The translations under genes were made by a program, and so were the position numbers. 64,000 nucleotides of DNA from Candidatus Saccharimonadota bacterium. Its GTDB lineage: Bacteria > Patescibacteriota > Saccharimonadia > Saccharimonadales > Saccharimonadaceae. Under the pieces are notes generated by a model, which saw only the letters and a list, made by a program, of their open reading frames with translations, was not told the DNA's origin and made no database searches. This document shows positions 21,101 to 55,777 of this stretch, piece by piece. Numbering within the stretch: position 1 is the stretch's first letter; every line of letters begins with the position of its first letter. Location of the stretch: the NCBI GenBank assembly GCA_009777625.1, contig WRLL01000002.1, positions 563 to 64,562 of the forward strand, in the 5' to 3' direction.

Positions 21101-22726
21101 TTACATCATTCCACCCATGCCACCCATGTCTGGCATTGGCGCGGATTTTGGTTCGGGGATTTCAGCGATCAATGCGCCCATCGTGATCGATGTCGCGGCC
21201 AGGCTAACAGCGGTGGCGACGGCTTCGTGGGTGACTTTGGCCGGGTCGACGATACCGGACTTTTTCAAATCGACCAGTTTGCCGGTGAATTTCATGACAT
21301 CGACGCCCTGGCCAGCCGCGGCGGTTTGGACCTGAGCCAGCAAGGCTTCGGCGTTCAGGCCGGCGTTTTGCATCAGCTGACGGAACGGCGCCATCAAGGC
21401 ATTACGCAAGATTTCGGCGCCAGCGTCTTTACCGGAAATCTCGGCGGCCAGGTTGACCAGAGTTGCACCGCCGCCCGGCACGATTCCGCTCGTGAGCGCG
21501 GCTTTGACGGCGGCCACGGCGTCGTCGACGCGGTATTTCTTTTCCTCGATTTCGGTTTCGGTGGTGCCGCCGACTTTGATGACAGCGACTTTGCCGCCGA
21601 GCGATGCGGCGCGCTTTTCCATCTGTTCTTTGTCGTATTCGCTGGAGGCGGCTTCGGCCTGGGCCAGGATTTGCTTGACGCGCTCATTGACGTTTCGTTT
21701 GTCGCCGGCGCCTTCGATTATCGTGGTGTTATCTTTGCCAACGATGACTTTTCTTGCCGAACCCAAAACTTCTAAACCAACATTTTCAAAAGACAGGCCT
21801 TGGTCGTCGGTGATGACGGTCGCGCCGGTCAGAATGGCGATGTCTCGCAGGACGTCTTTTCTTCTATCACCAAATGAAGGCGCTTTGACGGCGACGGTGT
21901 TAAAGACGCCTTTCAATCGGTTAAGGATCAGAACGCCCAACGCTTCGCCTTCGACTTCGTCGGCGATCAGGACGACGTCTTTCTTACCAGCGGCGGCTAG
22001 CTTTTCCAAAATCGGCAGAAATTCCTGGACAGAAGAGATTTTCTTATCTGTTATCAGGATGGCCGGTTTGTCGTAGATGGCCTCCATGCGGGTGGTGTCG
22101 GTCGCCATGTAGGCTGAAACGTAGCCGCGGTCAAACGTGAAGCCTTCGGTGACTTCAGCTTCCATGTCCAGGCCCTGACCTTCTTCGACGCTGACGACGC
22201 CGTCGCGGCCGATTTTCTCAATGACATTGGCGATCAGTTTGCCGATTTCTGAATCACCTGCCGAGATTGTTGCGACTTCGGCGACGCGATCGTTCTTGCC
22301 GGTGATCGGCTCGGCGATTTTGGTTAAGGCCTTCAGCACCTCGTCGCCGGCTTTCTCGACGCCTTTGCGCAGCTCCATCGGGTTGTGACCGGCCGCGATC
22401 AGACGGTTGGCCTCTTTCAGAATCTCGTAAGTCAGCACGGTAACAGTGGTCGTGCCGTCGCCGGCGGCCTTGTTCATTTTCTTGGCGGCCTGTTTGATCA
22501 GGTCGGCGCCGATTTTTTCGCCCAGGTTATCCTCGGTTTCGGGTAGGTCGATCGCCTCGGCCACGGTCACGCCGTCGTGCGTCACGCTGGGGCCGCCGTA
22601 ACTTTTGCCGATGACGACGTTTCTTCCTTTTGGTCCCATGGTGGTTTTGACGGCGTCGGCCAGGACTTTAGCGCCGGCCAGGATGGCGGCGCGGGCTTCG
22701 TCGTCGTAGATTACTTTTTTTGCCAT
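21101..22726 (-). CDS. groEL: chaperonin GroEL
   Basis: 541 aa with the AAGDGTTTVTVL motif and a GGMGGMM C-terminus. Confidence 0.97.
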   Translation of the reverse strand: MAKKVIYDDEARAAILAGAKVLADAVKTTMGPKGRNVVIGKSYGGPSVTHDGVTVAEAIDLPETEDNLGEKIGADLIKQAAKKMNKAAGDGTTTVTVLTYEILKEANRLIAAGHNPMELRKGVEKAGDEVLKALTKIAEPITGKNDRVAEVATISAGDSEIGKLIANVIEKIGRDGVVSVEEGQGLDMEAEVTEGFTFDRGYVSAYMATDTTRMEAIYDKPAILITDKKISSVQEFLPILEKLAAAGKKDVVLIADEVEGEALGVLILNRLKGVFNTVAVKAPSFGDRRKDVLRDIAILTGATVITDDQGLSFENVGLEVLGSARKVIVGKDNTTIIEGAGDKRNVNERVKQILAQAEAASSEYDKEQMEKRAASLGGKVAVIKVGGTTETEIEEKKYRVDDAVAAVKAALTSGIVPGGGATLVNLAAEISGKDAGAEILRNALMAPFRQLMQNAGLNAEALLAQVQTAAAGQGVDVMKFTGKLVDLKKSGIVDPAKVTHEAVATAVSLAATSITMGALIAEIPEPKSAPMPDMGGMGGMM

Positions 22727-22756
22727 TGATGATTTCCTTTCATTAATTATCTCTAC

Positions 22757-22816
22757 TTGTCATTCCGAGCTTGTCGAGGAATCTACGCAGATCCTTCGGC
22801 AAGCTCAGGATGACAG
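22757..22816. repeat. double-hairpin palindromic element, copy E, inside the groES-groEL spacer
   Basis: TTGTCATTCCGAGCTTGTCGAGGAATCTACGCAGATCCTTCGGCAAGCTCAGGATGACAG. Confidence 0.75.
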
Positions 22817-22823
22817 TTGCTAG

Positions 22824-23093
22824 CTAAGCGACTATAGCTAGTACGTCTTCTTCTTTTACAATTAGATATTCGGTGCCGTCAACTTTGACGTCGGTTGTTG
22901 AGTATTCGCGGACTATGATGCGTTCACCTACTTTTACTTCTTTGACTTGCGCGCCGGCAGCAACGACTGTCGCGATTTGCGATTTTTCTTTGGCGTTGTC
23001 GGGCAGATACAACCCTGTTGCAGTTTTGGCCGCTGCTTCCTCGCGCGTGGCGACGATACGCTCACCAAGCGGTTTTATAGGAACTTTTGTCAT
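22824..23093 (-). CDS. groES: co-chaperonin GroES
   Basis: 89 aa with a GroES-type sequence (PLGERIV...GLYLPD...). AGGAGG SD upstream. Confidence 0.95.
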   Translation of the reverse strand: MTKVPIKPLGERIVATREEAAAKTATGLYLPDNAKEKSQIATVVAAGAQVKEVKVGERIIVREYSTTDVKVDGTEYLIVKEEDVLAIVA

Positions 23094-23143
23094 GTTTCCT
23101 CCTCTTATAAATCTTGACTACGACTTCTATTTTATCACAAAAG

Positions 23144-24337: not shown

Positions 24338-24817
24338 CTATTCGATGCCTGTAATTACAAACTCCGGCGACGGCTGCTCGGGATCGGCATTCACCGTGAC
24401 ATGGTAACGAAACATATCGTTGACGGTCACATCAAACTGGTAATGCCACGCCTGCGGCGGGTCTGCCGGATTTACTTGTCCGTTATCCAGGGTCACAGTA
24501 TAGCCGCTTTCTCCTGGGCCGCCATCGGCCATAACTTTATCTCTTAGCAGGTCTCTCAGAAGGTCGGTATTGCTACTGCCAATCACACGAGCTACTTCGT
24601 TGCGGCTGGCAAATTCGAATTCAAAGAAACCAGATGGCGTCAGGGTGACTGTCGTGGTATCGTCCTGGTCGTCCGGAACTAGTTCTATGTCGTTGTCGAT
24701 GCGTCGATTCCCTATCATCGTGCTGATTATAATGGCAACAATAATGGCGACTATGATAATAGCACCGCTGATAATTAATACTCGCCTGCGGCGTTTAGTT
24801 TGGTTATCATCCTGCAT
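24338..24817 (-). CDS. bitopic exported protein (N-terminal TM + ~115-aa ectodomain), last gene of the T4SS-like operon
   Basis: The RRRRVLIISGAIIIVAIIVAIIISTMI anchor gives a VirB8/PrgL-like size and topology. No sequence motif supports this. Confidence 0.5.
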   Translation of the reverse strand: MQDDNQTKRRRRVLIISGAIIIVAIIVAIIISTMIGNRRIDNDIELVPDDQDDTTTVTLTPSGFFEFEFASRNEVARVIGSSNTDLLRDLLRDKVMADGGPGESGYTVTLDNGQVNPADPPQAWHYQFDVTVNDMFRYHVTVNADPEQPSPEFVITGIE

Positions 24818-24849
24818 GTGTTGCTCCTTTCAGTCTATTGCTAATACTA

Positions 24850-25638
24850 TTAACAGCCACCCGAACCGCCAGAACCATCAGTGGGGCCGGGTTTGACCGA
24901 TTGATCGGCGGCCCATTCGTATGTTAAGACGGTACCAGTTCCGTTGTACATGCCCTGCTTGATTTCCAAATAATCAAAGGCTACGGGTGGAAAACCGGAT
25001 ACTCGACCAGTATAGCCGGATGGTGTGCCAACTTGCGGGTTAGACCAACCTTGTTTTGGATCGTTATTGCTATAAGTGTCAACACCTGTCCATGGCGCAG
25101 GTCCAGCCTCGATTGCAGCAGCATAGATCGATTTACCGTTGTCTGGATTAGTCACCTTGACAATGCGTGGTGCTTCTCTCATCCATGCCAGATATGCAGG
25201 GCCGCCATCTGTCGTTGCCGACTTGCCATTCCAATACCAAGCCACATAACCCCAGCGCATCGTGATGTAATAGTCGCGGTATTCCTGCCCCAATGCTGCG
25301 AAGCCCGAGAATGTTACTTTCGGGCCACTAGGATTAGATATCAGGGCGCCATTCTCGAGCACGGCTTCTTCTAACCCTGCTTTGCCAGAAGTCGCTGGTA
25401 TTGCGAATGATATATCACTGCCTGATGTCGATGTGCTGCCGGGTATGCTACTCACGAGTGATGACAAACAGGCATTATCCGAGTAGAAAAAGATGTTGTT
25501 GGTCGCGTAAAAATCGTTTAGTGTCATGCTAGGCACAGGGGCAGCGTGTGTCACGGAAACGCCCAGGAACGACAAAATCAAGGCCATGGCTGGCAGCCAC
25601 AGGCCTACCAGACGTTTTGGTGCGTGTTGGCGACTCAT
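24850..25638 (-). CDS. secreted protein, possible RlpA/DPBB-like (lytic transglycosylase-type) fold
   Basis: Signal peptide ending VTHAAP. VKVTNPDNGKSIYAAAIEAGP resembles the RlpA V.V.N..NGKS...V.DRGP strand region (weak). The start overlaps the upstream stop (ATGA). Confidence 0.5.
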   Translation of the reverse strand: MSRQHAPKRLVGLWLPAMALILSFLGVSVTHAAPVPSMTLNDFYATNNIFFYSDNACLSSLVSSIPGSTSTSGSDISFAIPATSGKAGLEEAVLENGALISNPSGPKVTFSGFAALGQEYRDYYITMRWGYVAWYWNGKSATTDGGPAYLAWMREAPRIVKVTNPDNGKSIYAAAIEAGPAPWTGVDTYSNNDPKQGWSNPQVGTPSGYTGRVSGFPPVAFDYLEIKQGMYNGTGTVLTYEWAADQSVKPGPTDGSGGSGGC

Positions 25639-26117
25639 AATTCTACCTCTGGTGGCGGCAAATTAGTACACTCAAATGCATCATAGATCAGCTGGCTAAC
25701 GTCGGGGCAAGTTATTAAAATAGTGCCATCACCCAGGACAGACCGGCTATCATTTAGCCAGTTGTCGAGCATCTGGTATGTCTGCTCGAGGCTGGGAATG
25801 TCAATAATGAAAAACGTAACATAGGTGCTCAGGTCATCGTTGTAGCTCTGTAAATAGGAACCATCACGAATGGCAGCGTCTTTTGCGTAGCGTCCTTCGG
25901 CCAACCCATTTTGCTGTAGCATCAGAGTTAAGGTCTGTTCGATAACCACGCGTCGGCTGTTTGGCAAGTTCCCGACATACTGATCGAAGTTGGTTATGAC
26001 TGACCTGGGGGTACCGTCAGAATTAGACAGCAGCGGCGTGAATGCCAGACCAATTATTACTATCACCAATGTGGTTACGACTATGATTACGCGTTTGCGC
26101 CAAGCCTTATATTCCAT
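25635..26117 (-). CDS. bitopic exported protein (N-terminal TM + ~125-aa ectodomain)
   Basis: RVIIVVTTLVIVIIGLAFTPLL anchor. GGAG SD upstream. Size and topology are VirB8-like. No motif evidence. Confidence 0.5.
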   Translation of the reverse strand: MEYKAWRKRVIIVVTTLVIVIIGLAFTPLLSNSDGTPRSVITNFDQYVGNLPNSRRVVIEQTLTLMLQQNGLAEGRYAKDAAIRDGSYLQSYNDDLSTYVTFFIIDIPSLEQTYQMLDNWLNDSRSVLGDGTILITCPDVSQLIYDAFECTNLPPPEVEL

Positions 26118-26164: not shown

Positions 26165-29100
26165 TTACCATCCAGTAGTCGACCAGTGCCACGGCTCTGC
26201 AAGACGTGGTGGTGTGTCCAGATTAATCAAGCCATATCTTGCAGCGTTGGCCGCCAGCCACTTAAACCCATCACTGTTTTTGTTGCTGCCAAAGTTGAAG
26301 TCTATAGCGCCGCCACCTTCGTGTTGGGAAGTGCCCGGAGTAGCGACCGGCGGGCTGCATCCGGGGCAGCCTCTGGATTTGTACAAGTTCGTCTGCGTTT
26401 CGTTGGAACGCCAGCCAGTGCCGTTCAGCCTAATTCCGGCTGTCGTCCAGGCGTCGTCAATCATCTGGGCAACATTGCCGGAAATAAGCGAGTTAACAGT
26501 AATAGTGGTGTTATTGACTGTACAGATCTTGAAGGTAACACCCCCACTAAGGCCTAGAGACGGTATGCTAAATTCCCGGTTGTTATAGGATTCTATAAAT
26601 TCTGTTGTCCCTGTAGCGCAAGGTATACTAGAATAATCCATGCCTGGGGTCAGGGTCCAGCCCCTACCGTGCTGGGTAACATTATCCGGGGTGGCAATGG
26701 TTAGAGACGAACCTGCGCTGCCGTCATCGTTTGGCTCCTCGTCCATCGAATCAAGGATGCGTTTGTAGATTAGATAGTTGTAAAACACGACGTTCTCGGA
26801 GACACCATTGATAGCGGCGACTTGATCGGTGCTGGCAACCAGTTGACCACGGCTATCCAGTGTTTCATGCGCCATGGCGATAGTTGGGCCGGCACTACCT
26901 GAGGCAAAGTCGGTGTCCTGCATACACCTGACACCATCGCCGACGTCTGCTTGGCCCTCCAGGGACTCGGTGCCTATCGGGACTCCGCGGTCAACACACT
27001 TTTCGATAAATTCAGAGAAAACAGTGCCGGCGACCGGATCACCCTCGGCGTCAATGAGATTATTGTCTTCCATGTATGCTACTGTTTGCCCTAAATCAGT
27101 CGTCGTTGTCAGACCATAGGTCGGTATACCCAAGTAGTCACAGCCAACACCGGCGGCTTCGTAGTCTAAATCGGCGCACTTAAAGTAGTCAGAAGAGATT
27201 TCTTCGGCGGAAGCTCTGGGGCCGGCTAACGCGCCACGAAAAGCTGTGCCGATCAGCCCGTACGTCTTGGCAAAGAACGCTGGGATACTGTTAGTTGCTC
27301 CATCCATATGGACTGACATATTGCCAGCAAACGATCCAAGTGGTGTGTAAGGATTCCTTACGTCGTACCAATTGGCACCGATGCGCTCTTCTGCGGCATA
27401 GGCCAGCGCGAGCCCGCGAGTCTGATTGGCTTGGTTAACGGCTTGCTGCGGACTGAGTGGCGCACAGCCGCCTGCCTGACAGGCTTCCTTAAACATGCTG
27501 CTTGCCCCGACCGCCCAAGCGTCGCCAGCCTGCTCGCCTAGTGTATCATCATCGATCACTACACCAGCTGCTATGTCTGTCAGCACACCGGGCAGTATGG
27601 CCACGATGGCCTCGAAACCAAGATTGCCAACTATATTTGTCCAGAAACGTTTGTTTTTGAGTAGTCCTTTGTTGAACATCTGTCTGAATTGTTGCTTGAT
27701 AGCTGCCTTTACGGCCTGCTGAAAGGCTATTTGGCCGCTTTTTAGGACGGCATTACCAGTGCCGGCTGTAAAGATGCCTACTACGACATTTATAGTTATA
27801 CCGATTGCAGCATCGGCAATTTGGAAGGCTATACTGCGGACCTTCTTGCAATCCGATGCGAGATTGTGCTCACCTATTTTACTGGCACCTTGGTTGATGC
27901 CAGCCAACATAGCGCCCCATATACTACCCCCCAGTGACCCCATAAAGTTCATCATCGACTCGCTGGGTGGCATGCGGTCGCCAAACAATACATATTTCAT
28001 GCCGACGCCATCAGTTGCGGCGCCCTGCACGATGTCGCCCTTTTTGATGTCGGCCAATATGGTACCATCCGTGTCTTTGATCACCTCGTCAGAGGCTGCT
28101 CTGAGTACCGTGGTCAACGTATTACCCAGGAATTCGCCCTGGGCTGGCGTGGCCTTACCAAGTCGCATAGCATCAGCTGCGCTCATAAACGCCATGGCGT
28201 AGCGGATCAACTGGATATTACGCACCATTTTTATACCGACACCGACTGCACGAACTGCATTATACAGACCGCAAACATAATTTAGGGTGCCGCCAGTGAC
28301 GTTCACGAATCCAGCTATTTTCTGGAGGTTGCTTTCGGACATGCCGCTGACTGCCGCTGTGACGGCGCGTTTGCCAGACGATGCGGCTTCTTCGGCACCG
28401 CTGGCAATGGCAGAGGTAGACCGGTTCATTTCTTCGACTTGCGCAGTCAGGCTGGCTCTATCATCCCAAGATTTCGTAATCGGCTTGCCATCATCACCTA
28501 ACACGGGCCTGTCGTTTTGGTCGACAATCTGCTGTGTACCGTTTTGGTTATCCGGATCCACTGGTGCAACCCTAAAGCTACTCTGCCCGGGTGCAACGCC
28601 ATCATTGACAGCTGACCTCAGCTTACTCTTCATTTCCTCTGCGTCGCCAGTTTCAGGCAAAGGTGGCCTTTTGCTGGCCTTAGCCTTGGCTACCACGCGG
28701 CTGAATGTGCGGTCGGTAAAACCGGCAAATTTGGGGTCGTAGCCGGCTTTGCGGAATGCCTTGCTGACTGCTGGGTCTGTTGCCATTGCTTTCTGAATAG
28801 TGGTTGCATCGTATACCATTACACCATTGAGCGGTTTGACGTTGTCTGGTAGCTGTATAGAGTGCACTGACTGACGGCCGCTGCCTGGGCTAATCGGGTG
28901 GCCCCCACTATCGAAGAGCTTGAACCCAGCTTTGTCTAGTCGTTTAACCATGCGCGCAGGCATTTTCTTGAATTTACAGGTCGCGCTGACTGCTGTGCAA
29001 ACTTGGCCGGACAGACTCTGACGCCAAACATGCCCTGAATTATTTTTCATAGGCCACCACTGGACGTTCATTATACCACCGCTCATCGCACCTGTTAGCC

Positions 29101-29491
29101 AGGGCAGCAGCGTTGCTGGTCCACTAAACATCAGTAGTGCGCCAGCAATGCCAAAACCTCCGGCACTGCCAAAGAGTATCTTTTTGGCATGTTTTTTCAT
29201 AAATGTCTTGGCCTTGTCGCCTCTGCCACCACCTTCTTTGCTGCCTTTTTTATCACCACTATAGTCCCAGGGATTGGATGGTGCATCCTGGCGCTCGGCG
29301 TCGGAAACGTTGGATGAATCGGTCGGTGAATTGCCGGCGGCTTGTTCGGCGGCACCCAGTTGGGACCCGATCGAATGGTCAGCGGGGTTGTCATAACCAG
29401 CGGTGGGATTTGAATAGTCAATCTCTGGTTGCTGGGTACGCCCAAGATCTTCTAGAAGCTGGGCGGTATACTCTTTCTTCTTAGCGGCCAT
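26165..29491 (-). CDS. 1108-aa membrane-associated protein with C-terminal M15 (VanY/D,D-carboxypeptidase-type) zinc peptidoglycan peptidase domain
   Basis: The C-terminus carries GWRSNETQTNLY, SQHEGGGAIDF (SxHxxGxAxD) and EPWHWS (ExWH), the VanY/M15B metal-ligand pattern. There is an N-terminal hydrophobic segment (ILFGSAGGFGIAGALLMFSG) and further hydrophobic stretches mid-protein. GGAGG SD upstream. Confidence 0.8.
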   Translation of the reverse strand: MAAKKKEYTAQLLEDLGRTQQPEIDYSNPTAGYDNPADHSIGSQLGAAEQAAGNSPTDSSNVSDAERQDAPSNPWDYSGDKKGSKEGGGRGDKAKTFMKKHAKKILFGSAGGFGIAGALLMFSGPATLLPWLTGAMSGGIMNVQWWPMKNNSGHVWRQSLSGQVCTAVSATCKFKKMPARMVKRLDKAGFKLFDSGGHPISPGSGRQSVHSIQLPDNVKPLNGVMVYDATTIQKAMATDPAVSKAFRKAGYDPKFAGFTDRTFSRVVAKAKASKRPPLPETGDAEEMKSKLRSAVNDGVAPGQSSFRVAPVDPDNQNGTQQIVDQNDRPVLGDDGKPITKSWDDRASLTAQVEEMNRSTSAIASGAEEAASSGKRAVTAAVSGMSESNLQKIAGFVNVTGGTLNYVCGLYNAVRAVGVGIKMVRNIQLIRYAMAFMSAADAMRLGKATPAQGEFLGNTLTTVLRAASDEVIKDTDGTILADIKKGDIVQGAATDGVGMKYVLFGDRMPPSESMMNFMGSLGGSIWGAMLAGINQGASKIGEHNLASDCKKVRSIAFQIADAAIGITINVVVGIFTAGTGNAVLKSGQIAFQQAVKAAIKQQFRQMFNKGLLKNKRFWTNIVGNLGFEAIVAILPGVLTDIAAGVVIDDDTLGEQAGDAWAVGASSMFKEACQAGGCAPLSPQQAVNQANQTRGLALAYAAEERIGANWYDVRNPYTPLGSFAGNMSVHMDGATNSIPAFFAKTYGLIGTAFRGALAGPRASAEEISSDYFKCADLDYEAAGVGCDYLGIPTYGLTTTTDLGQTVAYMEDNNLIDAEGDPVAGTVFSEFIEKCVDRGVPIGTESLEGQADVGDGVRCMQDTDFASGSAGPTIAMAHETLDSRGQLVASTDQVAAINGVSENVVFYNYLIYKRILDSMDEEPNDDGSAGSSLTIATPDNVTQHGRGWTLTPGMDYSSIPCATGTTEFIESYNNREFSIPSLGLSGGVTFKICTVNNTTITVNSLISGNVAQMIDDAWTTAGIRLNGTGWRSNETQTNLYKSRGCPGCSPPVATPGTSQHEGGGAIDFNFGSNKNSDGFKWLAANAARYGLINLDTPPRLAEPWHWSTTGW

Positions 29492-29518: not shown

Positions 29519-32209
29519 TCACCCCCCACCTCCCCCAGGAGCCGGTGGCGCCGGCGGTGCAGGTGGTGGCGCTCCTCCACCCCAACCCCTCAGCGCAGCT
29601 CGTTGACCTTCGTCAAGAGAGAGATTGCGGTTGTCTAGAATGCGTTGTGCGGTGTCTGCCTTCCACTGTGCACCTGTGACGCCGTCTCCCATGTCTGCAT
29701 CGTCCCTTATTGACGTCCCCGCCTGTACTAGCGCTGCGGCATTCTGGGTAGCTATCTCGCTATCGCCCAGGGTGGCCCATACGCCACCGCGGCCTGCTGC
29801 ATCTGTAGCGCCAATGTCTTGTTCTGCGAGTGTCGCGTTGGGGTCTCTAGCCCATGCAGCCACTGAAGCATAGCCACCTTTCACTGCACCATAGTGTTTG
29901 GTCTGGATATCCGACCTTAGATCTGTCGCCACAGCATTCCATCCTCCGGTTCCTTCGACATCTCTCAATGTGTCATGCAATGCCATCACGCCACGTTTAC
30001 CACGGGCCACCATCTGGTTCTGGACTGCCCGGGCTCTGTCGACATTGCCGGTCGCTACAGCCTCTCTCATCTGACGTTCCAAACTCACTATTGGGTCAAT
30101 ATTTGTTCCTCGCTCATGCCCCTTCCCGCTCATGTCCATTTCCAGTTGGCTGGCAACGAGGGCTTCCTGAGCCTTAACAGCTTCAGTCGATCGCTCAAGT
30201 GCCAGTTCATAGCCCTTAGCTTCGCGAGCCTGTCCCGTCTTACCTAGCCTTGCATTTGCTGCCCGGGTGGCTCGTGCCCGCCAACTGTTAGACTGCTCAC
30301 CGCTTTTGTTCAGGCCAGCCCGACGGAAAGCCTGGGTCCTCTGGGCGTTGGCCTGATGTCTTTTCCACATTTGCCCGCCCAATGAACGTTCATGTTCTTC
30401 TTTGGCTTTCGACTTGGTTCGTCCAAATTGGCTGCTCATGCGTCCAGCTGCGAAACCACCGACCATAGCGCCGACCTTGCCAAGGCTATTGAGTGAACCC
30501 TTCAGGATCCATGGTACGGCGAATAGAGGTAGAATTTGGGCGGCTGAGCCAGCCAGCATCAAGGCAAAACCGGTCACATCTATGGTGCCACTACCCTTTG
30601 ACATTAGATCGTTGCCCTGCGCTATAAGGATCTGGCCACCCAGTATTGATGCGCCGTAGATTAGGCCAATGATCGGATAGACCAGCAGGAGCGACGAGAA
30701 GACCTTCCACCACTTCTTGAACAGTGATTGGGTATTAGGCAGTATGGCCATGGCGAAGGCTATTGGTGCGATGACTACCAGCAACACAACAGCCAGCTGG
30801 CGAACAATCAGGATGAGGAGTGTCATTAGCAGTACGAGCAAGACGGCCAGTATGAGCGGGATGAATATACTCAGGCTGGAGAACAGTGCTATACCACCAG
30901 CGATCAGAGCGCCGGATATAATTAGGCCGGTGATGCTGGCAAAGCCACCGCCCGTGGTTGTATTAGGGCCGTCAGGCACCTCGATTGCCGGTACATTGTA
31001 GGCTAAATCGGTGAAGAAGGCTTTCATGCTTGAGCCAAGCAAGTTGCTAATGTCTACTGCTACGGCACAGATCCACCATGACAGGTTTAACAGGATGGCA
31101 AAGATAATTAGTCTAGGCAGGATTTGCTTGACGCTGTAATTACTAAGAGCGCCAAAGCCATTGCCGGTGGCTGTAGAATAGATAATAACAAGGAACAGTA
31201 TGACCAGGAGAATGTTAGCGATCGGTAGAATAGCTGCATAGGCCCCATAGGCTGGGCTGCTGGTGTCAAACATTGTGGGCTGAACCTGCAGGAAGCCTTC
31301 GAGCAGGCTGAACGTGTGGTCGGCTACTTCACCGAGGAAGTCTAGGATTGGGCAGAGGAGCCAGCCTATGCCGGTTATGGCGCAGTCAGAGAGAGAGTTA
31401 ACATCTGCTGGTCTACAGAAAGGAAAGCCATCAGAATCGGCTTCCCACGTGCCGTCGTCAGCCTCGCACGCCGCCCGGCGTTCGGATTCAGGTATACAGC
31501 GGTTCTCAGTATTTATCCACTCACCGCCAGCATTAACACAATTTACCTGATTGGATGTTTCTAAAGTCGTGGTGTCAACTTGCTGTAGGGCCGCACCGAT
31601 GCTGGCGATGCTTGGCGGGTTATCCGTTACGATGTTTTTACCATTTATGCAGCTTTCCATTAACGCTGGACCTGATTTGCCTCTGGTTTCGTCTGCACAT
31701 GTTACGTATGCATTAATGACTCTTGATCGACAGTTTGCGTAGTCCTGTTGCATGCTGGGGCTGCCGCTGCCACCACCATATCTGGAACAATATAAACTGA
31801 TAAGAGGTTGTAGCGCAACGGCTAATTCCGGATCGTATTGTCGTTCGGCCGCCTGTAGTCCCAGAGCGCAGCTTGCCGGGGCATTATCCACAATGCTGCC
31901 AACGAAGCACGAATCGAACGTACTTCCATTGCTGGCGCTTTGATAACCCTTAATGCAATTATCTAGCCATACGTCTTCCTTGTTCTGGAAGGTAAAGCTT
32001 TTTTTTACTTGCTCGCCCGAGAGGAAATCCTTTACTTCCCATTCTACATTACGCGGGAAATTGCTTGAATTGTTCCGAAAGTTGTTACACCAATCGCTAG
32101 CCGCATCAGCATAAGCCGACTGGACGTTAGAAATCATTGGCGCAAATATAGAGACCACCAATCCCAAAATCGCTGGAAATATGAGGGCCCTCTTCCACCA
32201 CTTTTTCAT
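29519..32209 (-). CDS. VirB6/TrbL-like polytopic T4SS membrane protein with Cys-rich N-terminal ectodomain and long charged C-terminal tail
   Basis: Signal/anchor MKKWWKRALIFPAILGLVVSIFAP, then a ~290-aa ectodomain with ~20 Cys, then ~7-8 TM helices, then a ~300-aa Arg/Ala/Gly-rich tail ending PPPAPPAPPAPGGGGG. The start was set at ATG 32209. Confidence 0.65.
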   Translation of the reverse strand: MKKWWKRALIFPAILGLVVSIFAPMISNVQSAYADAASDWCNNFRNNSSNFPRNVEWEVKDFLSGEQVKKSFTFQNKEDVWLDNCIKGYQSASNGSTFDSCFVGSIVDNAPASCALGLQAAERQYDPELAVALQPLISLYCSRYGGGSGSPSMQQDYANCRSRVINAYVTCADETRGKSGPALMESCINGKNIVTDNPPSIASIGAALQQVDTTTLETSNQVNCVNAGGEWINTENRCIPESERRAACEADDGTWEADSDGFPFCRPADVNSLSDCAITGIGWLLCPILDFLGEVADHTFSLLEGFLQVQPTMFDTSSPAYGAYAAILPIANILLVILFLVIIYSTATGNGFGALSNYSVKQILPRLIIFAILLNLSWWICAVAVDISNLLGSSMKAFFTDLAYNVPAIEVPDGPNTTTGGGFASITGLIISGALIAGGIALFSSLSIFIPLILAVLLVLLMTLLILIVRQLAVVLLVVIAPIAFAMAILPNTQSLFKKWWKVFSSLLLVYPIIGLIYGASILGGQILIAQGNDLMSKGSGTIDVTGFALMLAGSAAQILPLFAVPWILKGSLNSLGKVGAMVGGFAAGRMSSQFGRTKSKAKEEHERSLGGQMWKRHQANAQRTQAFRRAGLNKSGEQSNSWRARATRAANARLGKTGQAREAKGYELALERSTEAVKAQEALVASQLEMDMSGKGHERGTNIDPIVSLERQMREAVATGNVDRARAVQNQMVARGKRGVMALHDTLRDVEGTGGWNAVATDLRSDIQTKHYGAVKGGYASVAAWARDPNATLAEQDIGATDAAGRGGVWATLGDSEIATQNAAALVQAGTSIRDDADMGDGVTGAQWKADTAQRILDNRNLSLDEGQRAALRGWGGGAPPPAPPAPPAPGGGGG

Positions 32210-32216
32210 ATATATA

Positions 32217-32245
32217 ATCATAAACGAAATTGCGTTTGAATGCAA
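32217..32245 (-). promoter_or_regulatory. leaderless promoter of the VirB6-like operon (TTGCAT-N17-TATGAT-N7-ATG)
   Basis: On the minus strand, -35 TTGCAT is at 32245-32240 and -10 TATGAT at 32222-32217, with the ATG at 32209. Near-identical to the module at 55737-55765. Confidence 0.6.
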
Positions 32246-32275
32246 CTACTGTCACGGTACAAGAATGATGCGATA

Positions 32276-32284
32276 TGCTACAAT
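32276..32284 (+). promoter_or_regulatory. extended -10 promoter, leaderless (HIT gene)
   Basis: TGcTACAAT at 32276-32284, followed by 6 nt and ATG 32291. No SD. Confidence 0.55.
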
Positions 32285-32290
32285 GTCTAT

Positions 32291-32683
32291 ATGAACGACA
32301 GTATTTTCACCAAAATCATTCGTGGCGAGATTCCGTCACAAAAAATCTACGAGGACGACAAGACCTTTGCTTTTCTGGATATTCGACCAAAACAACCTGG
32401 CCATACGCTGGTCATACCGAAGGCCCAGATCGGCAAAGTTTATGACCTGGACGACACCAACTACCGTGCGCTGTGGGCGTCGGTGCAAAAGGTTGCCCTT
32501 CATATGGAAAAGGTTTTAGGCCGGCGCGTTGCTACTATGATAATCGGCGTTGACATACCAGATCACGCTCACGTTAATCTGATACCATTCGATGGCAGTA
32601 AGGATCTAGATCTGCTGAAAGAACCCGAGGAAGCCAGCGAAGAAGAACTGACAGCGATGGCTGATAGGCTGCGAATATCGTAA
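32291..32683 (+). CDS. HIT-family (histidine triad) nucleotide hydrolase
   Basis: MNDSIFTKIIRGEIPS N-terminus and the HAHVNLIP histidine triad. Confidence 0.9.
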   Translation: MNDSIFTKIIRGEIPSQKIYEDDKTFAFLDIRPKQPGHTLVIPKAQIGKVYDLDDTNYRALWASVQKVALHMEKVLGRRVATMIIGVDIPDHAHVNLIPFDGSKDLDLLKEPEEASEEELTAMADRLRIS

Positions 32684-38553: not shown

Positions 38554-38582
38554 TTGACAGGGGGGGGGTTCTGTTATATGAT
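38554..38582 (+). promoter_or_regulatory. promoter TTGACA-N17-TATGAT whose spacer begins with a G9 homopolymer
   Basis: TTGACA at 38554-38559, G9 at 38560-38568 and TATGAT at 38577-38582. Confidence 0.55.
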
Positions 38583-39938: not shown

Positions 39939-39955
39939 TACTCTAGTATATCATG

Positions 39956-39964
39956 TGCTAGAAT
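39956..39964 (+). promoter_or_regulatory. extended -10 promoter, leaderless (mtnN)
   Basis: TGcTAGAAT at 39956-39964, followed by 6 nt and ATG 39971. Confidence 0.55.
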
Positions 39965-39970
39965 TGGAAT

Positions 39971-41735: not shown

Positions 41736-41776
41736 CGCCCTATTCTAACAGATTTCGCGAAAAAATGTTATACACA

Positions 41777-41805: not shown

Positions 41806-41811
41806 TACAAG

Positions 41812-52819: not shown

Positions 52820-53230
52820 CTAAACCGAAGTACCGCCGCCGGCGCCTGTACCAACAACACTGACAACCCAGCTCACGATCGCATAGCCCAGGATTGCGAC
52901 AACCAAACCGATTATAGCGTACAGGATGGTATTCTTTGCATCCTTGACCTTTTCTTGGTTACCGCCAGAGATAACATAGCGAATACCACCCCAAATCAGC
53001 ATGAAAATCGCCAGAATTCCAACGACGAACAGCATCAGATTAATGGCGCGCGGGATCAATGCTTGTGGCCCATCAAACAGCTCGGTCGGTTGGCCTTCGC
53101 CACGATAAGAACCGCTAAAAACATCCAATATCGACAAAGCAGAAGCCGGCAAGGTCGACATCAGCGTCACACCAACAAACAGCGTGGCAACTGAGATGAC
53201 CTTGCTTAACTTCTTAAATAATTGTCGCAT
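52820..53230 (-). CDS. VirB2/TrbC-like T4SS pilin paralog 7
   Basis: Signal peptide, then TM1, the WGGIRYVISGGNQEKVKDAKNTILYAIIGL loop and TM2. No Cys in the ectodomain. Confidence 0.75.
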   Translation of the reverse strand: MRQLFKKLSKVISVATLFVGVTLMSTLPASALSILDVFSGSYRGEGQPTELFDGPQALIPRAINLMLFVVGILAIFMLIWGGIRYVISGGNQEKVKDAKNTILYAIIGLVVAILGYAIVSWVVSVVGTGAGGGTSV

Positions 53231-53244
53231 AGAGCTACCTTTGA

Positions 53245-53661
53245 CTAACCGCCGAGTACTCCAAATACCCAGTTAACCAGTGCGTAGGCGATGATTGCTA
53301 TGATTAGGCCAACCACGGAGTACAGAATAGTATTCTTGGCGTTCTTGACCTCGTCTTCTTTACCGCGTGACAAGACATAGCGGATACCACCCCAGATGAT
53401 CATGATGACAGACAGGATACCAACGATAAACAGCATAATGTTGATAACGGTGGTCACAATGCCATTATTACCAAACAGCGAGCCGGTTTGCATGCCTTCG
53501 CCGACTGCACAGTCTTCGTTAATTGCGCCCGCCAAACCTTGCGTCTCGTCGCATGGATCACCCGGCGCCGCATGGACCGCTGGTGCGAACAATCCGAACC
53601 CCAGCACCAAAGCTGGCACTAAAAGCAATGTTGTGCTGATTTTCTTTATCATGCTTTTCAT
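53245..53661 (-). CDS. VirB2/TrbC-like T4SS pilin paralog 6
   Basis: Signal peptide ending VHAAP, a 2-Cys variable segment and the WGGIRYVLSRGKEDEVKNAKNTILYSVVGL core. Confidence 0.78.
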   Translation of the reverse strand: MKSMIKKISTTLLLVPALVLGFGLFAPAVHAAPGDPCDETQGLAGAINEDCAVGEGMQTGSLFGNNGIVTTVINIMLFIVGILSVIMIIWGGIRYVLSRGKEDEVKNAKNTILYSVVGLIIAIIAYALVNWVFGVLGG

Positions 53662-53736
53662 TTAGCCTCCCTCTATCAAATTACTAATTCTTTAACATTT
53701 TACTAAACTTGGAGTTTCATTGCAAATCGATTATGT

Positions 53737-54171
53737 TTAAGATCCCAGCAGACTAAACACCCATTGGACGATTGCGAAGGCCAGAATTGCCACGATCAGA
53801 CCAACGATCGCATAAATAATAGTGTTTTTTGCATTCTTAACTTTTTCAGGATCGCCGCGTGACAGGACGTAACTGATGCCGCCCCAGATGATCATGATGA
53901 CAGACAGGATACCGATGATGAAGAGCATAATATTGATGACCTGCTGGATAGTGCTGTTAAGGTCGCGGGCGCCGCTGGCTCGCACGCATTTTCCGCCGAC
54001 CCATTCTGATCCGGTCTCGGATTGGCAGGCGCTACAGGCTGCAATATTTGCAGCACCAGACAGTTTGTTACAATCAGCTGGGGCTGCGTACGCCGGTGCG
54101 GGCGCAAGGAATGTTGCGCCAACGCCCAATACTGCGACCATGGCAACAATTATATTTGTTAGTTTCCTCAT
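53737..54171 (-). CDS. VirB2/TrbC-like T4SS pilin paralog 5
   Basis: Signal peptide ending AYAAP, a 4-Cys variable segment and the WGGISYVLSRGDPEKVKNAKNTIIYAIVGL core. Confidence 0.78.
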   Translation of the reverse strand: MRKLTNIIVAMVAVLGVGATFLAPAPAYAAPADCNKLSGAANIAACSACQSETGSEWVGGKCVRASGARDLNSTIQQVINIMLFIIGILSVIMIIWGGISYVLSRGDPEKVKNAKNTIIYAIVGLIVAILAFAIVQWVFSLLGS

Positions 54172-54187
54172 AGGTGACTCCTTTCTT

Positions 54188-54586
54188 TTATAACCTACTT
54201 AAAACGAAATTGACAATTGCAAAGGCTGACACAGCGATAACCAGACCGACGATCGAATAGATCAGCATGTTACGGGCTTTTGTGACGGCATCTGGGCTGC
54301 CGCGGCCGGTTACGAAGCGAATACCGCTGATGGTGATCATGATGACGGCGATGATACCAGCTACAAAGATTAGGACATTGATGATATTTCTAAAAGTATT
54401 ATTTAAGGCTGTGTCGGCATTGGGGTCTTTCAGATCGGCGCAAACGGAGGAGTTCGGATTGGCCTTGCATAATTCCTGTATATTCTTTTCCGTAGAGGTA
54501 TCGGGTGCGGCAGATGCTGGCATTGCAAAGACCAAACTACCGGACAGGCCTGCGATCATGACTAAACTTAAGAAGATCTTCTTCAT
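54188..54586 (-). CDS. VirB2/TrbC-like T4SS pilin paralog 4
   Basis: Signal peptide ending ASAAP, a 2-Cys segment and the SGIRFVTGRGSPDAVTKARNMLIYSIVGL core. Confidence 0.75.
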   Translation of the reverse strand: MKKIFLSLVMIAGLSGSLVFAMPASAAPDTSTEKNIQELCKANPNSSVCADLKDPNADTALNNTFRNIINVLIFVAGIIAVIMITISGIRFVTGRGSPDAVTKARNMLIYSIVGLVIAVSAFAIVNFVLSRL

Positions 54587-54589
54587 CGG

Positions 54590-54862
54590 CTAAACCCTTC
54601 CAAACACAAAGTTAGTAATCGCAAAGGCTGCTACAACTACAACTAGCCCAATTACAGCGTAGAGAATGGTCTGCATGGCTTTCTGAGCCTTAGCCGGATC
54701 ACCGTTAGCTGTCAGATAACGGTAGCCAGCCATGATTATGAAAATTACCGCCACCATACCTAGAATAAAGTATGCGAGATTCAAAATGTTAGTCATCAGC
54801 CGGTCGCCGGAAACTTTCGGAACGTTGACATCTATTGCTGCGAGTAATCCAAGTACTTTCAT
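54590..54862 (-). CDS. VirB2/TrbC-like T4SS pilin paralog 3 (short, minimal N-terminus)
   Basis: 90 aa with the AGYRYLTANGDPAKAQKAMQTILYAVIGL core. The start overlaps the upstream stop (ATGA). Confidence 0.7.
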   Translation of the reverse strand: MKVLGLLAAIDVNVPKVSGDRLMTNILNLAYFILGMVAVIFIIMAGYRYLTANGDPAKAQKAMQTILYAVIGLVVVVAAFAITNFVFGRV

Positions 54863-55326
54863 GCGCCCAACCTCCCGACAATAAAGCTAACAATAATGGC
54901 CGATATCATAGCAATGACCGCGCCGATGACGGCCTTCAAAATTGTGTCTTGGGCCTTTTTGGTTTCTTCGGGTTCGCCTTGGGATGTAACGTATCTAAAG
55001 CCGCCATAGATAACATAGCCTACTGCCAAAATGCCGACGATACGCAAGGCGATGTCAACAATGTTCAGAACGACAGTAAAGATAATGACGTTTACCTGGA
55101 GCTCGCAATTGCCATCTTTGCCTCCTTTGCCTGGGACATTGCCCAGGCCTCGGTACCAAGTTGGGAAACCAAAAAAGTTGGCGTCAGAGTCAGCGGCGCC
55201 GGGGATCACTTCGCCTGTGCAGGGAGCATTTCTAGCTACAGCGCTGACCGCCGTTGGCATAGCAATCATCAGACCAGTTGCGCTAAATGCAACTATGGAT
55301 AAACTTATTATAAATTTCTTTATCAT
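54859..55326 (-). CDS. VirB2/TrbC-like T4SS pilin paralog 2
   Basis: AGGAGG SD before ATG 55326. Signal peptide MIKKFIISLSIVAFSATGLMIAMPTAVSA, a 2-Cys segment and the GGFRYVTSQGEPEETKKAQDTILKAVIG core. The ORF-track extension to 55521 overlaps paralog 1. Confidence 0.75.
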   Translation of the reverse strand: MIKKFIISLSIVAFSATGLMIAMPTAVSAVARNAPCTGEVIPGAADSDANFFGFPTWYRGLGNVPGKGGKDGNCELQVNVIIFTVVLNIVDIALRIVGILAVGYVIYGGFRYVTSQGEPEETKKAQDTILKAVIGAVIAMISAIIVSFIVGRLGA

Positions 55327-55730
55327 GAAAGGATGCCTCCTGGCACCAGGAAATTCAATGCTGCCCACATAATGAAGTATAGGACCAACCCGATAACAGA
55401 ATTCCTGATAGTGTCCAGACCTTTTTTCGATTGTTCGGGGTTTCCGCCACTGGTGGTGTAGAGGATCGCTCCATAAATTATGCCACCCAGCACAGCGATT
55501 GATACACCAATAGCCATCCAATTGACGATAGTGATAAGTAACGGTGTAATCTGTTCTGGGTTGCCTGAATCACAGCCCCAGTCAAAGAAAGTGTCCACAC
55601 CGCAGTTACGGTTTCCGGTCGCAGCCGAGACGCCTTTTGCGGTCAACAACGCTGCGGCAGTCACAGACAACGGCCCGCCAAATCCAAACACCCTTGATGG
55701 CAAAGAAAGCTTCAAGTGTCGTTTTAGCAT
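55323..55730 (-). CDS. VirB2/TrbC-like T4SS pilin paralog 1 (most divergent)
   Basis: Signal-like N-terminus, a 2-Cys segment (NCGVDTFFDWGC) and the two-TM core ILYTTSGGNPEQSKKGLDTIRNSVIGL. Confidence 0.65.
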   Translation of the reverse strand: MLKRHLKLSLPSRVFGFGGPLSVTAAALLTAKGVSAATGNRNCGVDTFFDWGCDSGNPEQITPLLITIVNWMAIGVSIAVLGGIIYGAILYTTSGGNPEQSKKGLDTIRNSVIGLVLYFIMWAALNFLVPGGILS

Positions 55731-55736: not shown

Positions 55737-55765
55737 ATCATAAACGAAATGACGGGCAAATGCAA
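55737..55765 (-). promoter_or_regulatory. leaderless promoter of the pilin array (TTGCAT-N17-TATGAT-N6-ATG)
   Basis: On the minus strand, -35 TTGCAT is at 55765-55760 and -10 TATGAT at 55742-55737, with the ATG at 55730. Shares ATTTCGTTTATGAT and AGTTGCAT with 32217-32247. Confidence 0.6.
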
Positions 55766-55777
55766 CTGTTTATTGTG

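What the first reader, a model, noticed from the sequence alone, without database searches (positions are those of the whole stretch)
32210..32250. The VirB6-hydrolase operon and the pilin array share a nearly identical leaderless promoter module
The two gene-strand sequences are AGTTGCATtcaaacgcaATTTCGTTTATGATtatatatATG (32247-32207) and AGTTGCATttgcccgtcATTTCGTTTATGATaaagtcATG (55767-55728). They share an identical 8-mer containing the -35 (TTGCAT), an exact 17-nt spacer length and an identical 14-mer ATTTCGTTTATGAT spanning the -10. The ATG lies 6-7 nt after the -10. I noticed no other copy of the 14-mer while reading the window, but I could not search it exhaustively. Two loci 23 kb apart with the same promoter strongly suggest co-regulation as one functional system. 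The conserved ATTTCGTT block may be a regulator site. The VirB4 module has only a weak resemblance (TTGTTCATTTTGTTTCGAG at ~14172).
Basis: seen in the sequence. Interest (0 to 1): 0.65.

Follow-up and report, generated by a model that had tools for sequence, protein, structure and literature searches.

The report
Shared leaderless promoter for secretion-system genes
Two gene clusters that together build the type IV secretion-like machine of an uncultured Saccharibacterium carry near-identical copies of one promoter placed right against the start codon. The same promoter signature marks these genes in distant relatives, which gives a first testable handle on how the machine is switched on.

Summary
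AGTTGCATT-N8-ATTTCGTTTATGAT occurs only at 32217-32247(-) and 55737-55767(-), 7 and 6 nt before the ATGs of a VirB6/TrbL-like five-gene operon and a seven-gene VirB2-like pilin array.

It is a sigma-70-type promoter: TTGCAT, 17 nt, TATGAT. It sits so that transcription should start at the ATG. Leaderless starts are common here: 18 of 58 gene starts have a -10 box 5-8 nt upstream and no Shine-Dalgarno site, and 28 have a Shine-Dalgarno site only.

The module is not the generic promoter of this genome, since most other leaderless promoters use a TGn extended -10. It is not chance either. A relative (L092) whose VirB6 is only about 34% identical keeps GTTGCATTC and the whole 14-mer at its VirB6 start, while the 8-nt distal spacer and the discriminator differ.

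TTGCATT-N8-ATTT[AC] occurs 31 times in 966 kb of related loci, always at T4SS-locus promoters; shuffles give 0-2.

In about 45 related loci the pilin array and the VirB6 operon are adjacent and divergent. This genome split them, and the gene order fits one 23.5-kb inversion.

Not shown: the transcription start sites, co-expression, or what reads the ATTTCGTT block. The source genome could not be scanned genome-wide.

The parts
32217..32247 (-). Promoter module copy 1: AG, -35 TTGCAT (32245-32240), T, an 8-nt variable distal spacer, conserved block ATTTCGTT (32230-32223) and -10 TATGAT (32222-32217). A 7-nt discriminator (32216-32210) separates it from the ATG at 32209-32207.
   Evidence: The same module sits at the orthologous VirB6 start in L092.
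55737..55767 (-). Promoter module copy 2: AG, -35 TTGCAT (55765-55760), T, an 8-nt variable distal spacer, ATTTCGTT (55750-55743) and -10 TATGAT (55742-55737). A 6-nt discriminator (55736-55731) separates it from the ATG at 55730-55728. The module begins 10 nt after the stop codon of the upstream permease-like gene.
29519..32209 (-). First gene of operon 1: an 896-aa VirB6/TrbL-like polytopic membrane protein with signal peptide MKKWWKRALIFPAILGLVVSIFAP. It has no Shine-Dalgarno site, so the start is predicted to be leaderless.
   Evidence: homologues carry PF04610 TrbL and PF19590 TrbL_3; 11 of 18 aligned homologues hit TrbL. The protein itself is below Pfam thresholds.
26165..29491 (-). Second gene of operon 1: a 1108-aa protein with a C-terminal VanY-type D-Ala-D-Ala carboxypeptidase domain, the putative cell-wall hydrolase. 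Its start is Shine-Dalgarno-led.
   Evidence: PF02557, E = 3.5e-9.
24338..26117 (-). Genes 3-5 of operon 1: 160, 262 and 159 aa, membrane or secreted, with no Pfam family. Each has a Shine-Dalgarno site or overlaps the previous gene.
52820..55730 (-). Operon 2: seven tandem VirB2-like pilin genes (55730-55323, 55326-54859, 54862-54590, 54586-54188, 54171-53737, 53661-53245, 53230-52820). The first is predicted to be leaderless. Genes 2 and 3 overlap the preceding stop (ATGA), and the rest are Shine-Dalgarno-led.
   Evidence: five of the seven scanned against Pfam: PF18895 T4SS_pilin, E = 4e-9 to 6e-12; all seven carry PF18895 in independent gene calls with the same starts.
32279..32293 (+). 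Divergent neighbour of copy 1: the HIT-family gene has its own leaderless promoter, TGcTACAAT, then 6 nt, then ATG at 32291. The 81-bp intergenic region therefore holds two back-to-back leaderless promoters.

Best explanation
Each site is a housekeeping-type (sigma-70 family) promoter. RNA polymerase would bind -35 TTGCAT and -10 TATGAT, 17 nt apart, and start at or within a base of the A of the ATG that lies 6-7 nt downstream. The first gene of each operon would then be translated from a leaderless mRNA. Downstream genes use Shine-Dalgarno sites or ATGA overlaps. The two promoters are copies of one conserved T4SS-locus promoter type, TTGCATT-N8-ATTT[C/A]-N3-TATGAT. Its upstream block and its -20 to -13 block (ATTTCGTT here) are held constant by selection, while the 8-nt distal spacer and the discriminator drift. 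In relatives the pilin array and the VirB6 operon are transcribed divergently from one short intergenic region. In this genome an inversion of about 23.5 kb separated them, and each half carries the same module, so both halves of the apparatus should be transcribed with the same strength and the same control. Shown: the sequences, their conservation, their restriction to T4SS loci in the sampled relatives, the synteny, and the two classes of gene start (Shine-Dalgarno-led and leaderless). That block replaces the TGn extended -10 motif used by most other leaderless promoters of this genome. It could be read by RNA polymerase itself or by a dedicated factor.
For: Promoter geometry and absence of a Shine-Dalgarno site. 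Two exclusive classes of gene start in the window, 28 Shine-Dalgarno only, 18 with a -10 box 5-8 nt upstream only, 0 with both, against a 6.5% background for any ATG. Of those 18, 12 have TGn where the two T4SS promoters have GTT. The pair is an outlier among the window's promoters (26 of 36 against 14.3 +/- 3.0). No simulated window reproduces the 23-position identity. L092 VirB6 promoter is GTTGCATTccgcgaccATTTCGTTTATGATaataatATG, with 34% protein identity over 486 aligned columns. TTGCATT-N8-ATTT[AC] gives 31 hits (19 unique sequences) in 966 kb, all followed by a -10 box at T4SS-locus promoters in five lineages; shuffles give 0-2. With one mismatch allowed, 41 hits against 1-4 in shuffles. 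Module-like promoter (TTGCGTT-N8-AATTAGTTTATGAT, 6 nt, ATG) on the pilin side in L003/L006, where the 6-nt discriminator differs at 4 positions and the 30 nt upstream at only 1. Adjacent divergent arrangement in relatives. The gene order pilins, HSP20, PRTase, PGM, Mur ligase, TsaD is shared by L092 and the window. The block keeps its nucleotides although its reading frame relative to the ATG differs between copies (7-nt against 6-nt discriminator), so it is not coding.
Against: No transcription start site or expression data exist for this organism. The -35 hexamer matches TTGACA at only 3 of 6 positions. The rest of the source genome could not be searched, because the genome is not in the species-representative collection, so further copies upstream of unrelated genes cannot be excluded. 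An identical set of 23 fixed bases occurs in an unrelated Oscillospiraceae contig about 100 nt upstream of a response-regulator-like ORF, so the sequence can arise as an ordinary promoter-like site. In L092, L096 and L097 the pilin array uses a different promoter (TTGCA[AC], 17 nt, TAAAAT or TAGAAT), so the shared module is not a general rule of the system. In TM7x the T4SS machinery genes did not change expression in a consistent direction (bioRxiv 10.1101/2022.03.25.485537).
Confidence: 0.7

Rival explanations
1. The conserved blocks (TTGCATT and the ATTT[C/A] block about one helical turn downstream) are the binding site of a dedicated transcription factor that overlaps the -35 and spacer. 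One candidate is a response-regulator-type activator that binds direct repeats; another is a repressor. The factor would tie T4SS expression to host contact. RNA polymerase alone would not explain the constraint.
For: The block is invariant between the window and L092 while adjacent non-coding bases differ. The motif is absent from the other 16 leaderless promoters of the window and from non-T4SS promoters in 966 kb of related loci. CATT or AATT recurs at an 11-nt offset, (G)CATT ... (C/A)ATT. The module lacks the TGn element that most promoters here use, as expected for a factor-dependent promoter.
Against: No regulator gene was found in or beside the T4SS loci. No conserved dyad exists: TTGC-N8-GCAA is present only in copy 1 and in some oral-clade variants. 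Only ATTT is kept across all lineages, and in the oral clade its last T overlaps a TRTG-type -16 motif that RNA polymerase itself can read.
Confidence: 0.3
2. The near-identity within this genome is only a historical copy. One promoter was duplicated or patched onto the other around the time the cluster was split, and the identity says nothing about shared regulation beyond both being promoters.
For: Relatives have the exact or near module on only one side: the VirB6 side in L092, the pilin side in L003/L006. The pilin promoters of L092 and L097 resemble each other and differ from the window's pilin promoter. The locus has clearly been rearranged.
Against: All 6 differences between the two copies fall in one 8-nt stretch, and 23 of 23 other positions are identical. 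If 6 changes fell at random among 31 positions, the chance that all land in a given 8-nt stretch is about 4e-5 (my calculation), so the pattern points to selection on blocks and not to uniform decay of a copy. Similarity ends exactly at the promoter edges. The same blocks are preserved in L092 across deep divergence.
Confidence: 0.2
3. Chance resemblance between two unrelated AT-rich promoter-like sequences.
For: Identical 14-mers are common by chance in 64 kb, about 53 pairs in simulations. The full 23-base pattern also occurs once in an unrelated Firmicute.
Against: The 23-position identity appeared in 0 of 40 simulated windows. Both copies sit at the same distance from the start codons of two operons that are neighbours in relatives. 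The orthologous site in L092 is identical.
Confidence: 0.02
4. The block is transcribed. It would be part of a 5' UTR element or of an N-terminal extension, for example from the in-frame TTG at 32245 or the ATG at 32221, and it would act at the RNA or protein level.
For: the ORF listing gives an in-frame TTG start at 32245 for the VirB6-like ORF. Read-through from the upstream permease-like gene could include copy 2.
Against: The reading frame of the block relative to the ATG differs between copies. No Shine-Dalgarno site lies between the block and the ATG. Independent gene calls start the pilin at the same ATG. The predicted minimum-free-energy folds of the two sites share no common hairpin over the block. 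No Rfam family matches.
Confidence: 0.03

Closest known systems
Promoters of leaderless mRNAs, as modelled for Actinobacteria and Deinococcus (a -10 box about 6-7 nt before the start codon; GeneMarkS-2, Lomsadze et al. 2018). This comparison rests on my own knowledge; the paper is only listed among the references of PMC7441243.
   Same: A -10 hexamer lies 6-7 nt before an ATG with no Shine-Dalgarno site. The layout is used by a large minority of genes in the genome (18 of 58 in the window).
   Different: The organism is a Saccharibacterium (Patescibacteria). My literature searches found no description of leaderless transcription for this group. The two T4SS promoters also carry a -35 element and a conserved spacer block in place of the TGn motif of the other leaderless promoters.
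The Patescibacteria T4SS with VirB2-like pilin arrays (Quinonero-Coronel et al. 2025, PMC12102498). It was found essential in Ca. Southlakia epibionticum ML1 by Tn-seq, as cited there and in PMC11665869.
   Same: The gene set matches: VirB4 ATPase, PrgI/VirB3-like, TraC-like, VirB6/TrbL-like, a cell-wall hydrolase, and an array of 7 divergent PF18895 pilins.
   Different: Term searches of those papers found no occurrence of 'promoter' or 'operon' (PMC12102498) or of 'promoter', 'sigma' or 'transcription factor' (PMC11665869).
The Agrobacterium vir regulon, where a common cis element (the vir box) upstream of several vir operons, including virB, is bound by VirG. This comparison rests on my own knowledge and was not tested here.
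   Same: Separate operons of one T4SS carry a common short DNA element at or near the -35 region, which gives coordinated expression.
   Different: No VirA/VirG-like two-component genes were seen near the loci. There is no dyad like the vir box. Here the element lies within a leaderless promoter, and it is unknown whether a factor is needed.
Extended -10 (TGn) and Gram-positive '-16 TRTG' promoters. This comparison rests on my own knowledge.
   Same: Sequence just upstream of the -10 hexamer contributes to promoter recognition. The oral-clade version of the module (ATTTATGTTATGAT) contains a TRTG-type motif.
   Different: The window and L092 copies have CGTT at -16 to -13, which is neither TGn nor TRTG. 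Twelve of the other 16 leaderless promoters in the window do have TGn.

Membership tests
Sigma-70-type (housekeeping) bacterial promoter | A -10 hexamer close to TATAAT | tested here: met
   TATGAT matches 5 of 6 positions at both sites.
Sigma-70-type (housekeeping) bacterial promoter | A -35 hexamer close to TTGACA, 17 +/- 1 nt upstream of the -10 | tested here: inconclusive
   The spacing is exactly 17 nt. TTGCAT matches the consensus at only 3 of 6 positions (TTG). Other promoters in the window use TTGACA. The variant TTGCAT(T) is conserved at T4SS promoters in five lineages.
Sigma-70-type (housekeeping) bacterial promoter | A mapped transcription start about 7 nt downstream of the -10 | not testable with these tools
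   No RNA data were available.
Leaderless mRNA gene | No Shine-Dalgarno sequence, and a promoter -10 placed so that +1 falls on the start codon | tested here: met
   The spacers between the -10 and the ATG are 7 nt (tatatat) and 6 nt (aaagtc). No GGAG, GAGG, AGGA or AAGG lies upstream.
Leaderless mRNA gene | An AUG start codon at the very 5' end of the transcript | not testable with these tools
   The start codon is ATG at both sites and opens a signal peptide in each. The 5' end of the RNA is unknown.
Extended -10 promoter | TG at -15/-14 | tested here: not met
   Both copies and L092 have GTT at -15 to -13. Twelve of the 18 leaderless-type starts in the window have TGn.
ECF-sigma promoter | A -35 with an AAC core and a -10 with a CGT core, 16-17 nt apart | tested here: not met
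   A CGT is present in ATTTCGTT, but the sequence 16-17 nt upstream of it (GTTGCA) has no AAC motif. The CGT is not kept in the oral clade, L016 or L003.
Palindromic operator of a dimeric repressor | Conserved dyad symmetry | tested here: not met
   TTGC-N8-GCAA is present in copy 1 and in some oral-clade variants, but not in copy 2, L092, L003 or L016.
Patescibacteria MPF-FATA-like T4SS locus | VirB4 ATPase with PrgI/VirB3-like and TraC-like partners | tested here: met
   Gene 16250-18073 matches PF19044, PF12846 and PF01935. The upstream ORF aligns with PrgI-family proteins of L094 and L095.
Patescibacteria MPF-FATA-like T4SS locus | VirB6/TrbL-family polytopic membrane protein | tested here: inconclusive
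   The 896-aa protein itself gave no Pfam family at E <= 0.01. The collection's precomputed table lists PF19590 for it. Homologues at E = 1e-119 to 1e-83 carry PF04610 TrbL, and 11 of 18 aligned homologues hit TrbL.
Patescibacteria MPF-FATA-like T4SS locus | A tandem array of VirB2-like pilins (PF18895) | tested here: met
   There are seven genes. Five were scanned here, with E = 4e-9 to 6e-12, and all seven carry PF18895 in independent gene calls.

The most novel reading that the evidence does not exclude
TTGCATT-N8-ATTT[C/A] is the recognition site of a still unidentified factor dedicated to the Saccharibacterial T4SS. The factor could be a transcription factor or a specialised RNA-polymerase contact, and it would switch the pilin array and the VirB6/hydrolase operon on together, for example on host attachment. 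This would be the first cis-regulatory code described for the host-interaction machinery of Patescibacteria. In this genome, selection would have kept or installed the site on both halves after the cluster was split.
Probability: 0.25. Interest if true: 0.65.

Novelty: new member of a known kind. Interest (0 to 1): 0.42.

Why it matters
The T4SS and its pilin array are conserved across Saccharibacteria. They are reported to be essential for epibiotic growth (PMC12102498, PMC11665869). The mechanisms that govern the switch between free and host-attached states are described as completely unknown (PMC11665869). A short, conserved promoter signature specific to T4SS loci provides three practical things. 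It is a concrete bait for pull-down of a regulator. It is a motif for scanning complete genomes to define a regulon. It is a natural, compact, leaderless promoter cassette for genetic tools in the few tractable strains. The results also indicate that leaderless initiation is common in this lineage, which matters for gene calling in CPR genomes.

Tried and rejected
(1) Genome-wide count. The strict 23-base pattern was scanned against 185,579 species-representative genomes. The source genome is not there. The single hit (L002) is an Oscillospiraceae contig with unrelated genes. This used the only genome-contig scan.

(2) The exact VirB6 protein is not on record as a called gene. L001 is 100% identical to the window and carries no information.

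(3) Close-range footprinting on VirB6. No homologue above 49% identity exists in the protein collection. L008 is truncated and preceded by unrelated coding sequence. L009 has a different context. L090 is a lone pilin gene.

(4) HSP20 as a third member. Its promoter in the window is TTGCAT-17-TACAAT, but L003 and L006 have TTGTAG there, so the match is incidental.

(5) The VirB4 module. It shows no real similarity and has its own extended -10 promoter.

(6) Palindromic operator, ECF-type promoter, N-terminal extension and RNA element readings were all rejected. See the membership tests and rival explanations.

(7) TTTCGTT as a general motif. Its 16 copies in the window are mostly inside genes, and one (54203-54209) encodes the NFVL motif at a pilin C-terminus.

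(8) Rfam gives nothing but tRNAs.

(9) Literature. No paper on leaderless transcription, start sites or promoters in Saccharibacteria or Patescibacteria was found.

Full report
**Observation.** Both sequences are present exactly as reported.
- Site 1, gene strand: acagtAGTTGCATTcaaacgcaATTTCGTTTATGATtatatatATG, window 32247-32207.
- Site 2, gene strand: taaacAGTTGCATTtgcccgtcATTTCGTTTATGATaaagtcATG, window 55767-55728.
- The shared blocks are a 9-mer and a 14-mer separated by 8 variable bases. Similarity stops at the edges of this 31-bp module.
- The 14-mer has no third copy in the window, even with 2 mismatches.
- An identical 14-mer alone is weak evidence. First-order Markov simulations of the window give about 53 identical 14-mer pairs.
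- The 23-position identity never occurred in 40 simulations. The only other such pairs in the real window are true repeats.

**What lies downstream.**
- Site 2 precedes seven tandem VirB2-like pilin genes. Five were scanned against Pfam and hit PF18895, and all seven carry PF18895 in independent gene calls. The genes are tightly packed, with ATGA overlaps or Shine-Dalgarno sites.
- Site 1 precedes an 896-aa polytopic membrane protein. Its homologues carry TrbL/VirB6 domains, but the protein itself is below Pfam thresholds.
- Next comes a 1108-aa protein with a C-terminal VanY-type peptidase domain, then three small membrane or secreted proteins.
- A VirB4 module lies at about 14.3-18.1 kb and has a different promoter.
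- This gene set is the Patescibacteria T4SS described in PMC12102498. A term search of that paper found no occurrence of 'promoter' or 'operon'.

**Is it a promoter, and is the start leaderless?**
- The layout is TTGCAT, 17 nt, TATGAT, then 6-7 nt, then ATG, with no Shine-Dalgarno site.
- The window's gene starts fall into two exclusive classes. Of 58 starts, 28 have a Shine-Dalgarno site only and 18 have a TAnnnT box 5-8 nt upstream only. None has both. The background for any ATG is 6.5%. A few of those starts were chosen with the -10 box in view, so the count of 18 is slightly generous.
- Both ATGs open convincing signal peptides. Independent gene calls place the pilin start at the same ATG.
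- Leaderless initiation therefore looks like a general habit of this genome. My searches found no paper that describes it for Saccharibacteria.

**Is it just the generic promoter?** No.
- Twelve of the 18 leaderless-type starts have a TGn extended -10 and mostly no clear -35. The two T4SS promoters have GTT there, plus a -35 and the ATTTCGTT block.
- Aligned on the -10 box, the pair shares 26 of 36 positions. All other pairs average 14.3 +/- 3.0, with a maximum of 20.

**Relatives.** The source genome has no close relative in the collections; the best VirB6 identity is 49%. I examined loci from the look-up of encoding contigs (L003-L009, L090-L097) and 80 metagenome loci (L010-L089).
- **Synteny.** In about 45 loci the pilin array lies upstream of the VirB6 operon and is transcribed divergently from it, often across a 50-140 bp intergenic region. 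HSP20 sits at the far end of the array, as in the window. The two window loci are therefore halves of one conserved unit.
- **The closest informative relative is L092.** Its first pilin is 61% identical. It has the same seven-pilin array and the same gene order HSP20, PRTase, PGM, Mur ligase, TsaD. Its VirB6 is divergent from the pilins.
  - Its VirB6 promoter reads GTTGCATTccgcgaccATTTCGTTTATGATaataatATG.
  - The 9-mer GTTGCATTC and the whole 14-mer equal window copy 1. The distal spacer and the discriminator differ.
  - The protein is only 34% identical over 486 aligned columns.
  - This is a clear footprint of selection on two blocks.
- **The block is not coding.** Its frame relative to the ATG differs between copies, because the discriminator is 7 nt in one and 6 nt in the others.
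- **The core motif is restricted to T4SS loci.** TTGCATT-N8-ATTT[AC] occurs 31 times (19 unique sequences) in 966 kb of loci plus window. Every hit is followed by a -10 box at a T4SS-locus promoter. The hits come from the window (twice), L092, L010, L016 and the large oral clade. In the oral clade the promoter drives a lipoprotein gene followed by two VirB6 paralogues. Shuffles give 0-2 hits. With one mismatch allowed there are 41 hits against 1-4 in shuffles, which adds L034.
- **The side that carries the module varies.** It is on the VirB6 side in L092, L010, L016, L095 (TTGCATT only) and the oral clade. It is on the pilin side in L003/L006 (cGTTGCGTT-tatggata-AATTAGTTTATGAT, 6 nt, ATG). The pilin promoters of L092, L097 and L096 are TTGCA[AC], 17 nt, TAAAAT or TAGAAT, 6 nt, ATG, and lack the ATTT block. 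Only the window genome has the full module on both sides.

**How the split arose (inference).** Relative to L092, the window's gene order is what a single inversion of the segment from the pilin array to the HIT gene (about 23.5 kb) would produce. One breakpoint would lie between the two back-to-back promoters.
- After such an inversion VirB6 becomes divergent from HIT and the pilin promoter abuts the permease-like gene, as observed.
- If both arms of the ancestral divergent region already carried the module, the inversion converts an inverted pair into the direct pair seen now.
- Alternatively, the pilin side acquired the module later.
- I could not tell these apart. The L092 contig beyond 10 kb could not be read because the look-ups were exhausted.

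**Mechanism and its rivals.** The best-supported reading is two copies of one conserved leaderless sigma-70-type promoter, which would give both halves of the apparatus the same transcriptional input (confidence 0.7).
- What reads the -20 to -13 block is open.
- A dedicated factor is plausible, at about 0.3. The block is invariant, restricted to T4SS loci and replaces TGn. CATT or AATT recurs at an 11-nt offset.
- Against a dedicated factor: no regulator gene is nearby and no dyad is conserved. Across all lineages only ATTT is kept, and in the oral clade it merges with a TRTG-type -16 motif that RNA polymerase can read.
- A purely historical copy is unlikely as the whole story, at about 0.2. 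All six differences between the copies fall in one 8-nt stretch, and the same blocks persist in L092.
- Chance and the RNA or coding readings are effectively excluded.

**Limits.**
- There are no RNA data.
- The genome-wide count could not be done. The scan of species-representative genomes showed that the source genome is absent.
- That scan returned one identical match in an unrelated Oscillospiraceae contig. I treat this as a chance promoter-like sequence. It shows the pattern alone is not diagnostic outside this phylogenetic context.
- In TM7x, T4SS genes driven by different promoters change expression in different directions. This fits the presence of several promoter classes in the locus, here class A (TTGCATT...) and a second conserved class, TTGACTTTTT...AAAATGnTAnnAT, at a VirB6 paralogue.

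**Verdict.** It is a new, conserved promoter signature of a known kind, restricted to T4SS loci in the relatives sampled. It is of moderate interest in general and higher for CPR biology, where regulation is unexplored.

Noticed in passing
window 14290-14302 (+): The PrgI/VirB3-like gene ahead of VirB4 has no ATG, GTG or TTG before its conserved N-terminus. Where L094 has ATG GCC GAA CAC AAA (MAEHKVPQDVEA...), the window has ATA GCC GAA CAC AAA, preceded by GGAG at 6 nt. This suggests an AUA start codon, a start-codon mutation or a sequencing error. In L094 the same gene is leaderless (TACAAT, 6 nt, ATG).
   Followed up: partly
window 38560-38568, 41831-41839, 50555-50562: Three long homopolymer tracts sit at expression-critical places. 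G9 lies inside the 17-nt spacer of a consensus TTGACA/TATGAT promoter. C9 lies in codons 7-10 of the leaderless gene at 41812. G8 lies directly before the ATG at 50567. They could be phase-variable contingency sites or places prone to assembly error.
   Followed up: no
L028 3876-3920 and the same place in about 30 oral-clade loci (for example L021, L042, L054, L069): CTTGCAT is followed by a perfect 15-bp inverted repeat, CATAAACACCTTCAT-N10-ATGAAGGTGTTTATG, that spans the called start of VirB6 paralogue 1. L042, L054 and L069 carry a compensatory change (AAGCACC / GGTGCTT). It could be an RNA hairpin or a palindromic operator.
   Followed up: no
L015 about 1690-1730, L021 about 6370-6411, L034, L053, L072, L076, L088 (upstream of the MWD/MEWLIS-type VirB6 paralogue): A second conserved T4SS promoter class, TTGACTTTTT-N-AAA(A/G)TGnTAnnAT, lies about 9 nt before the ATG. 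It is kept across several Saccharibacteria clades and is distinct from the TTGCATT class.
   Followed up: partly
window 39939-39970; also 41736-41811 and 32210-32290: Pairs of divergent, apparently leaderless genes lie only 32, 76 and 81 bp apart, so the two promoters are back to back or interleaved. At 39938/39971 both -10 boxes fit into 32 bp.
   Followed up: no
window 52229-52245; L003 5866-5880; L006 5936-5950: The HSP20 gene beside the pilin array has a leader whose first bases after the -10 box are conserved (TAT..CATAAAC) in three genomes, although the -35 differs. It may be a heat-shock operator or an RNA element.
   Followed up: no
window 11845-11875 (+) and 45841-45871 (-): A 31-nt hairpin repeat, TTGTCATCCTGAA-loop-TTTCAGGATCTAAT, occurs at the 3' ends of two unrelated genes. 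The two copies differ only in the loop. It is terminator-like or a small dispersed repeat.
   Followed up: no
L002 136-166 (-), Oscillospiraceae MAG contig CAZVVH010000093.1: The same 23 specified bases (AGTTGCATT-N8-ATTTCGTTTATGAT) occur about 100 nt upstream of a response-regulator-like ORF, among ordinary metabolic and transport genes of an unrelated Firmicute.
   Followed up: partly
L096 1-9060 compared with window 14300-23100: The block VirB4 module, DAGK, PGI, 172-aa gene, GroEL, GroES is syntenic between L096 and the window. In L096 the pilin array follows groES directly, whereas the window has a 305-aa ORF and the tail of the VirB6 operon there. The T4SS parts have been reshuffled repeatedly. 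A CIRCE-like inverted repeat precedes groES in L096 (7900-7930).
   Followed up: no
window 54200-54211 (-): AATTTCGTTTTA, which resembles the promoter block, is the coding sequence for the NFVL motif at the C-terminus of pilin 4. Similar C-terminal motifs recur in the other pilins. This is probably coincidental.
   Followed up: no
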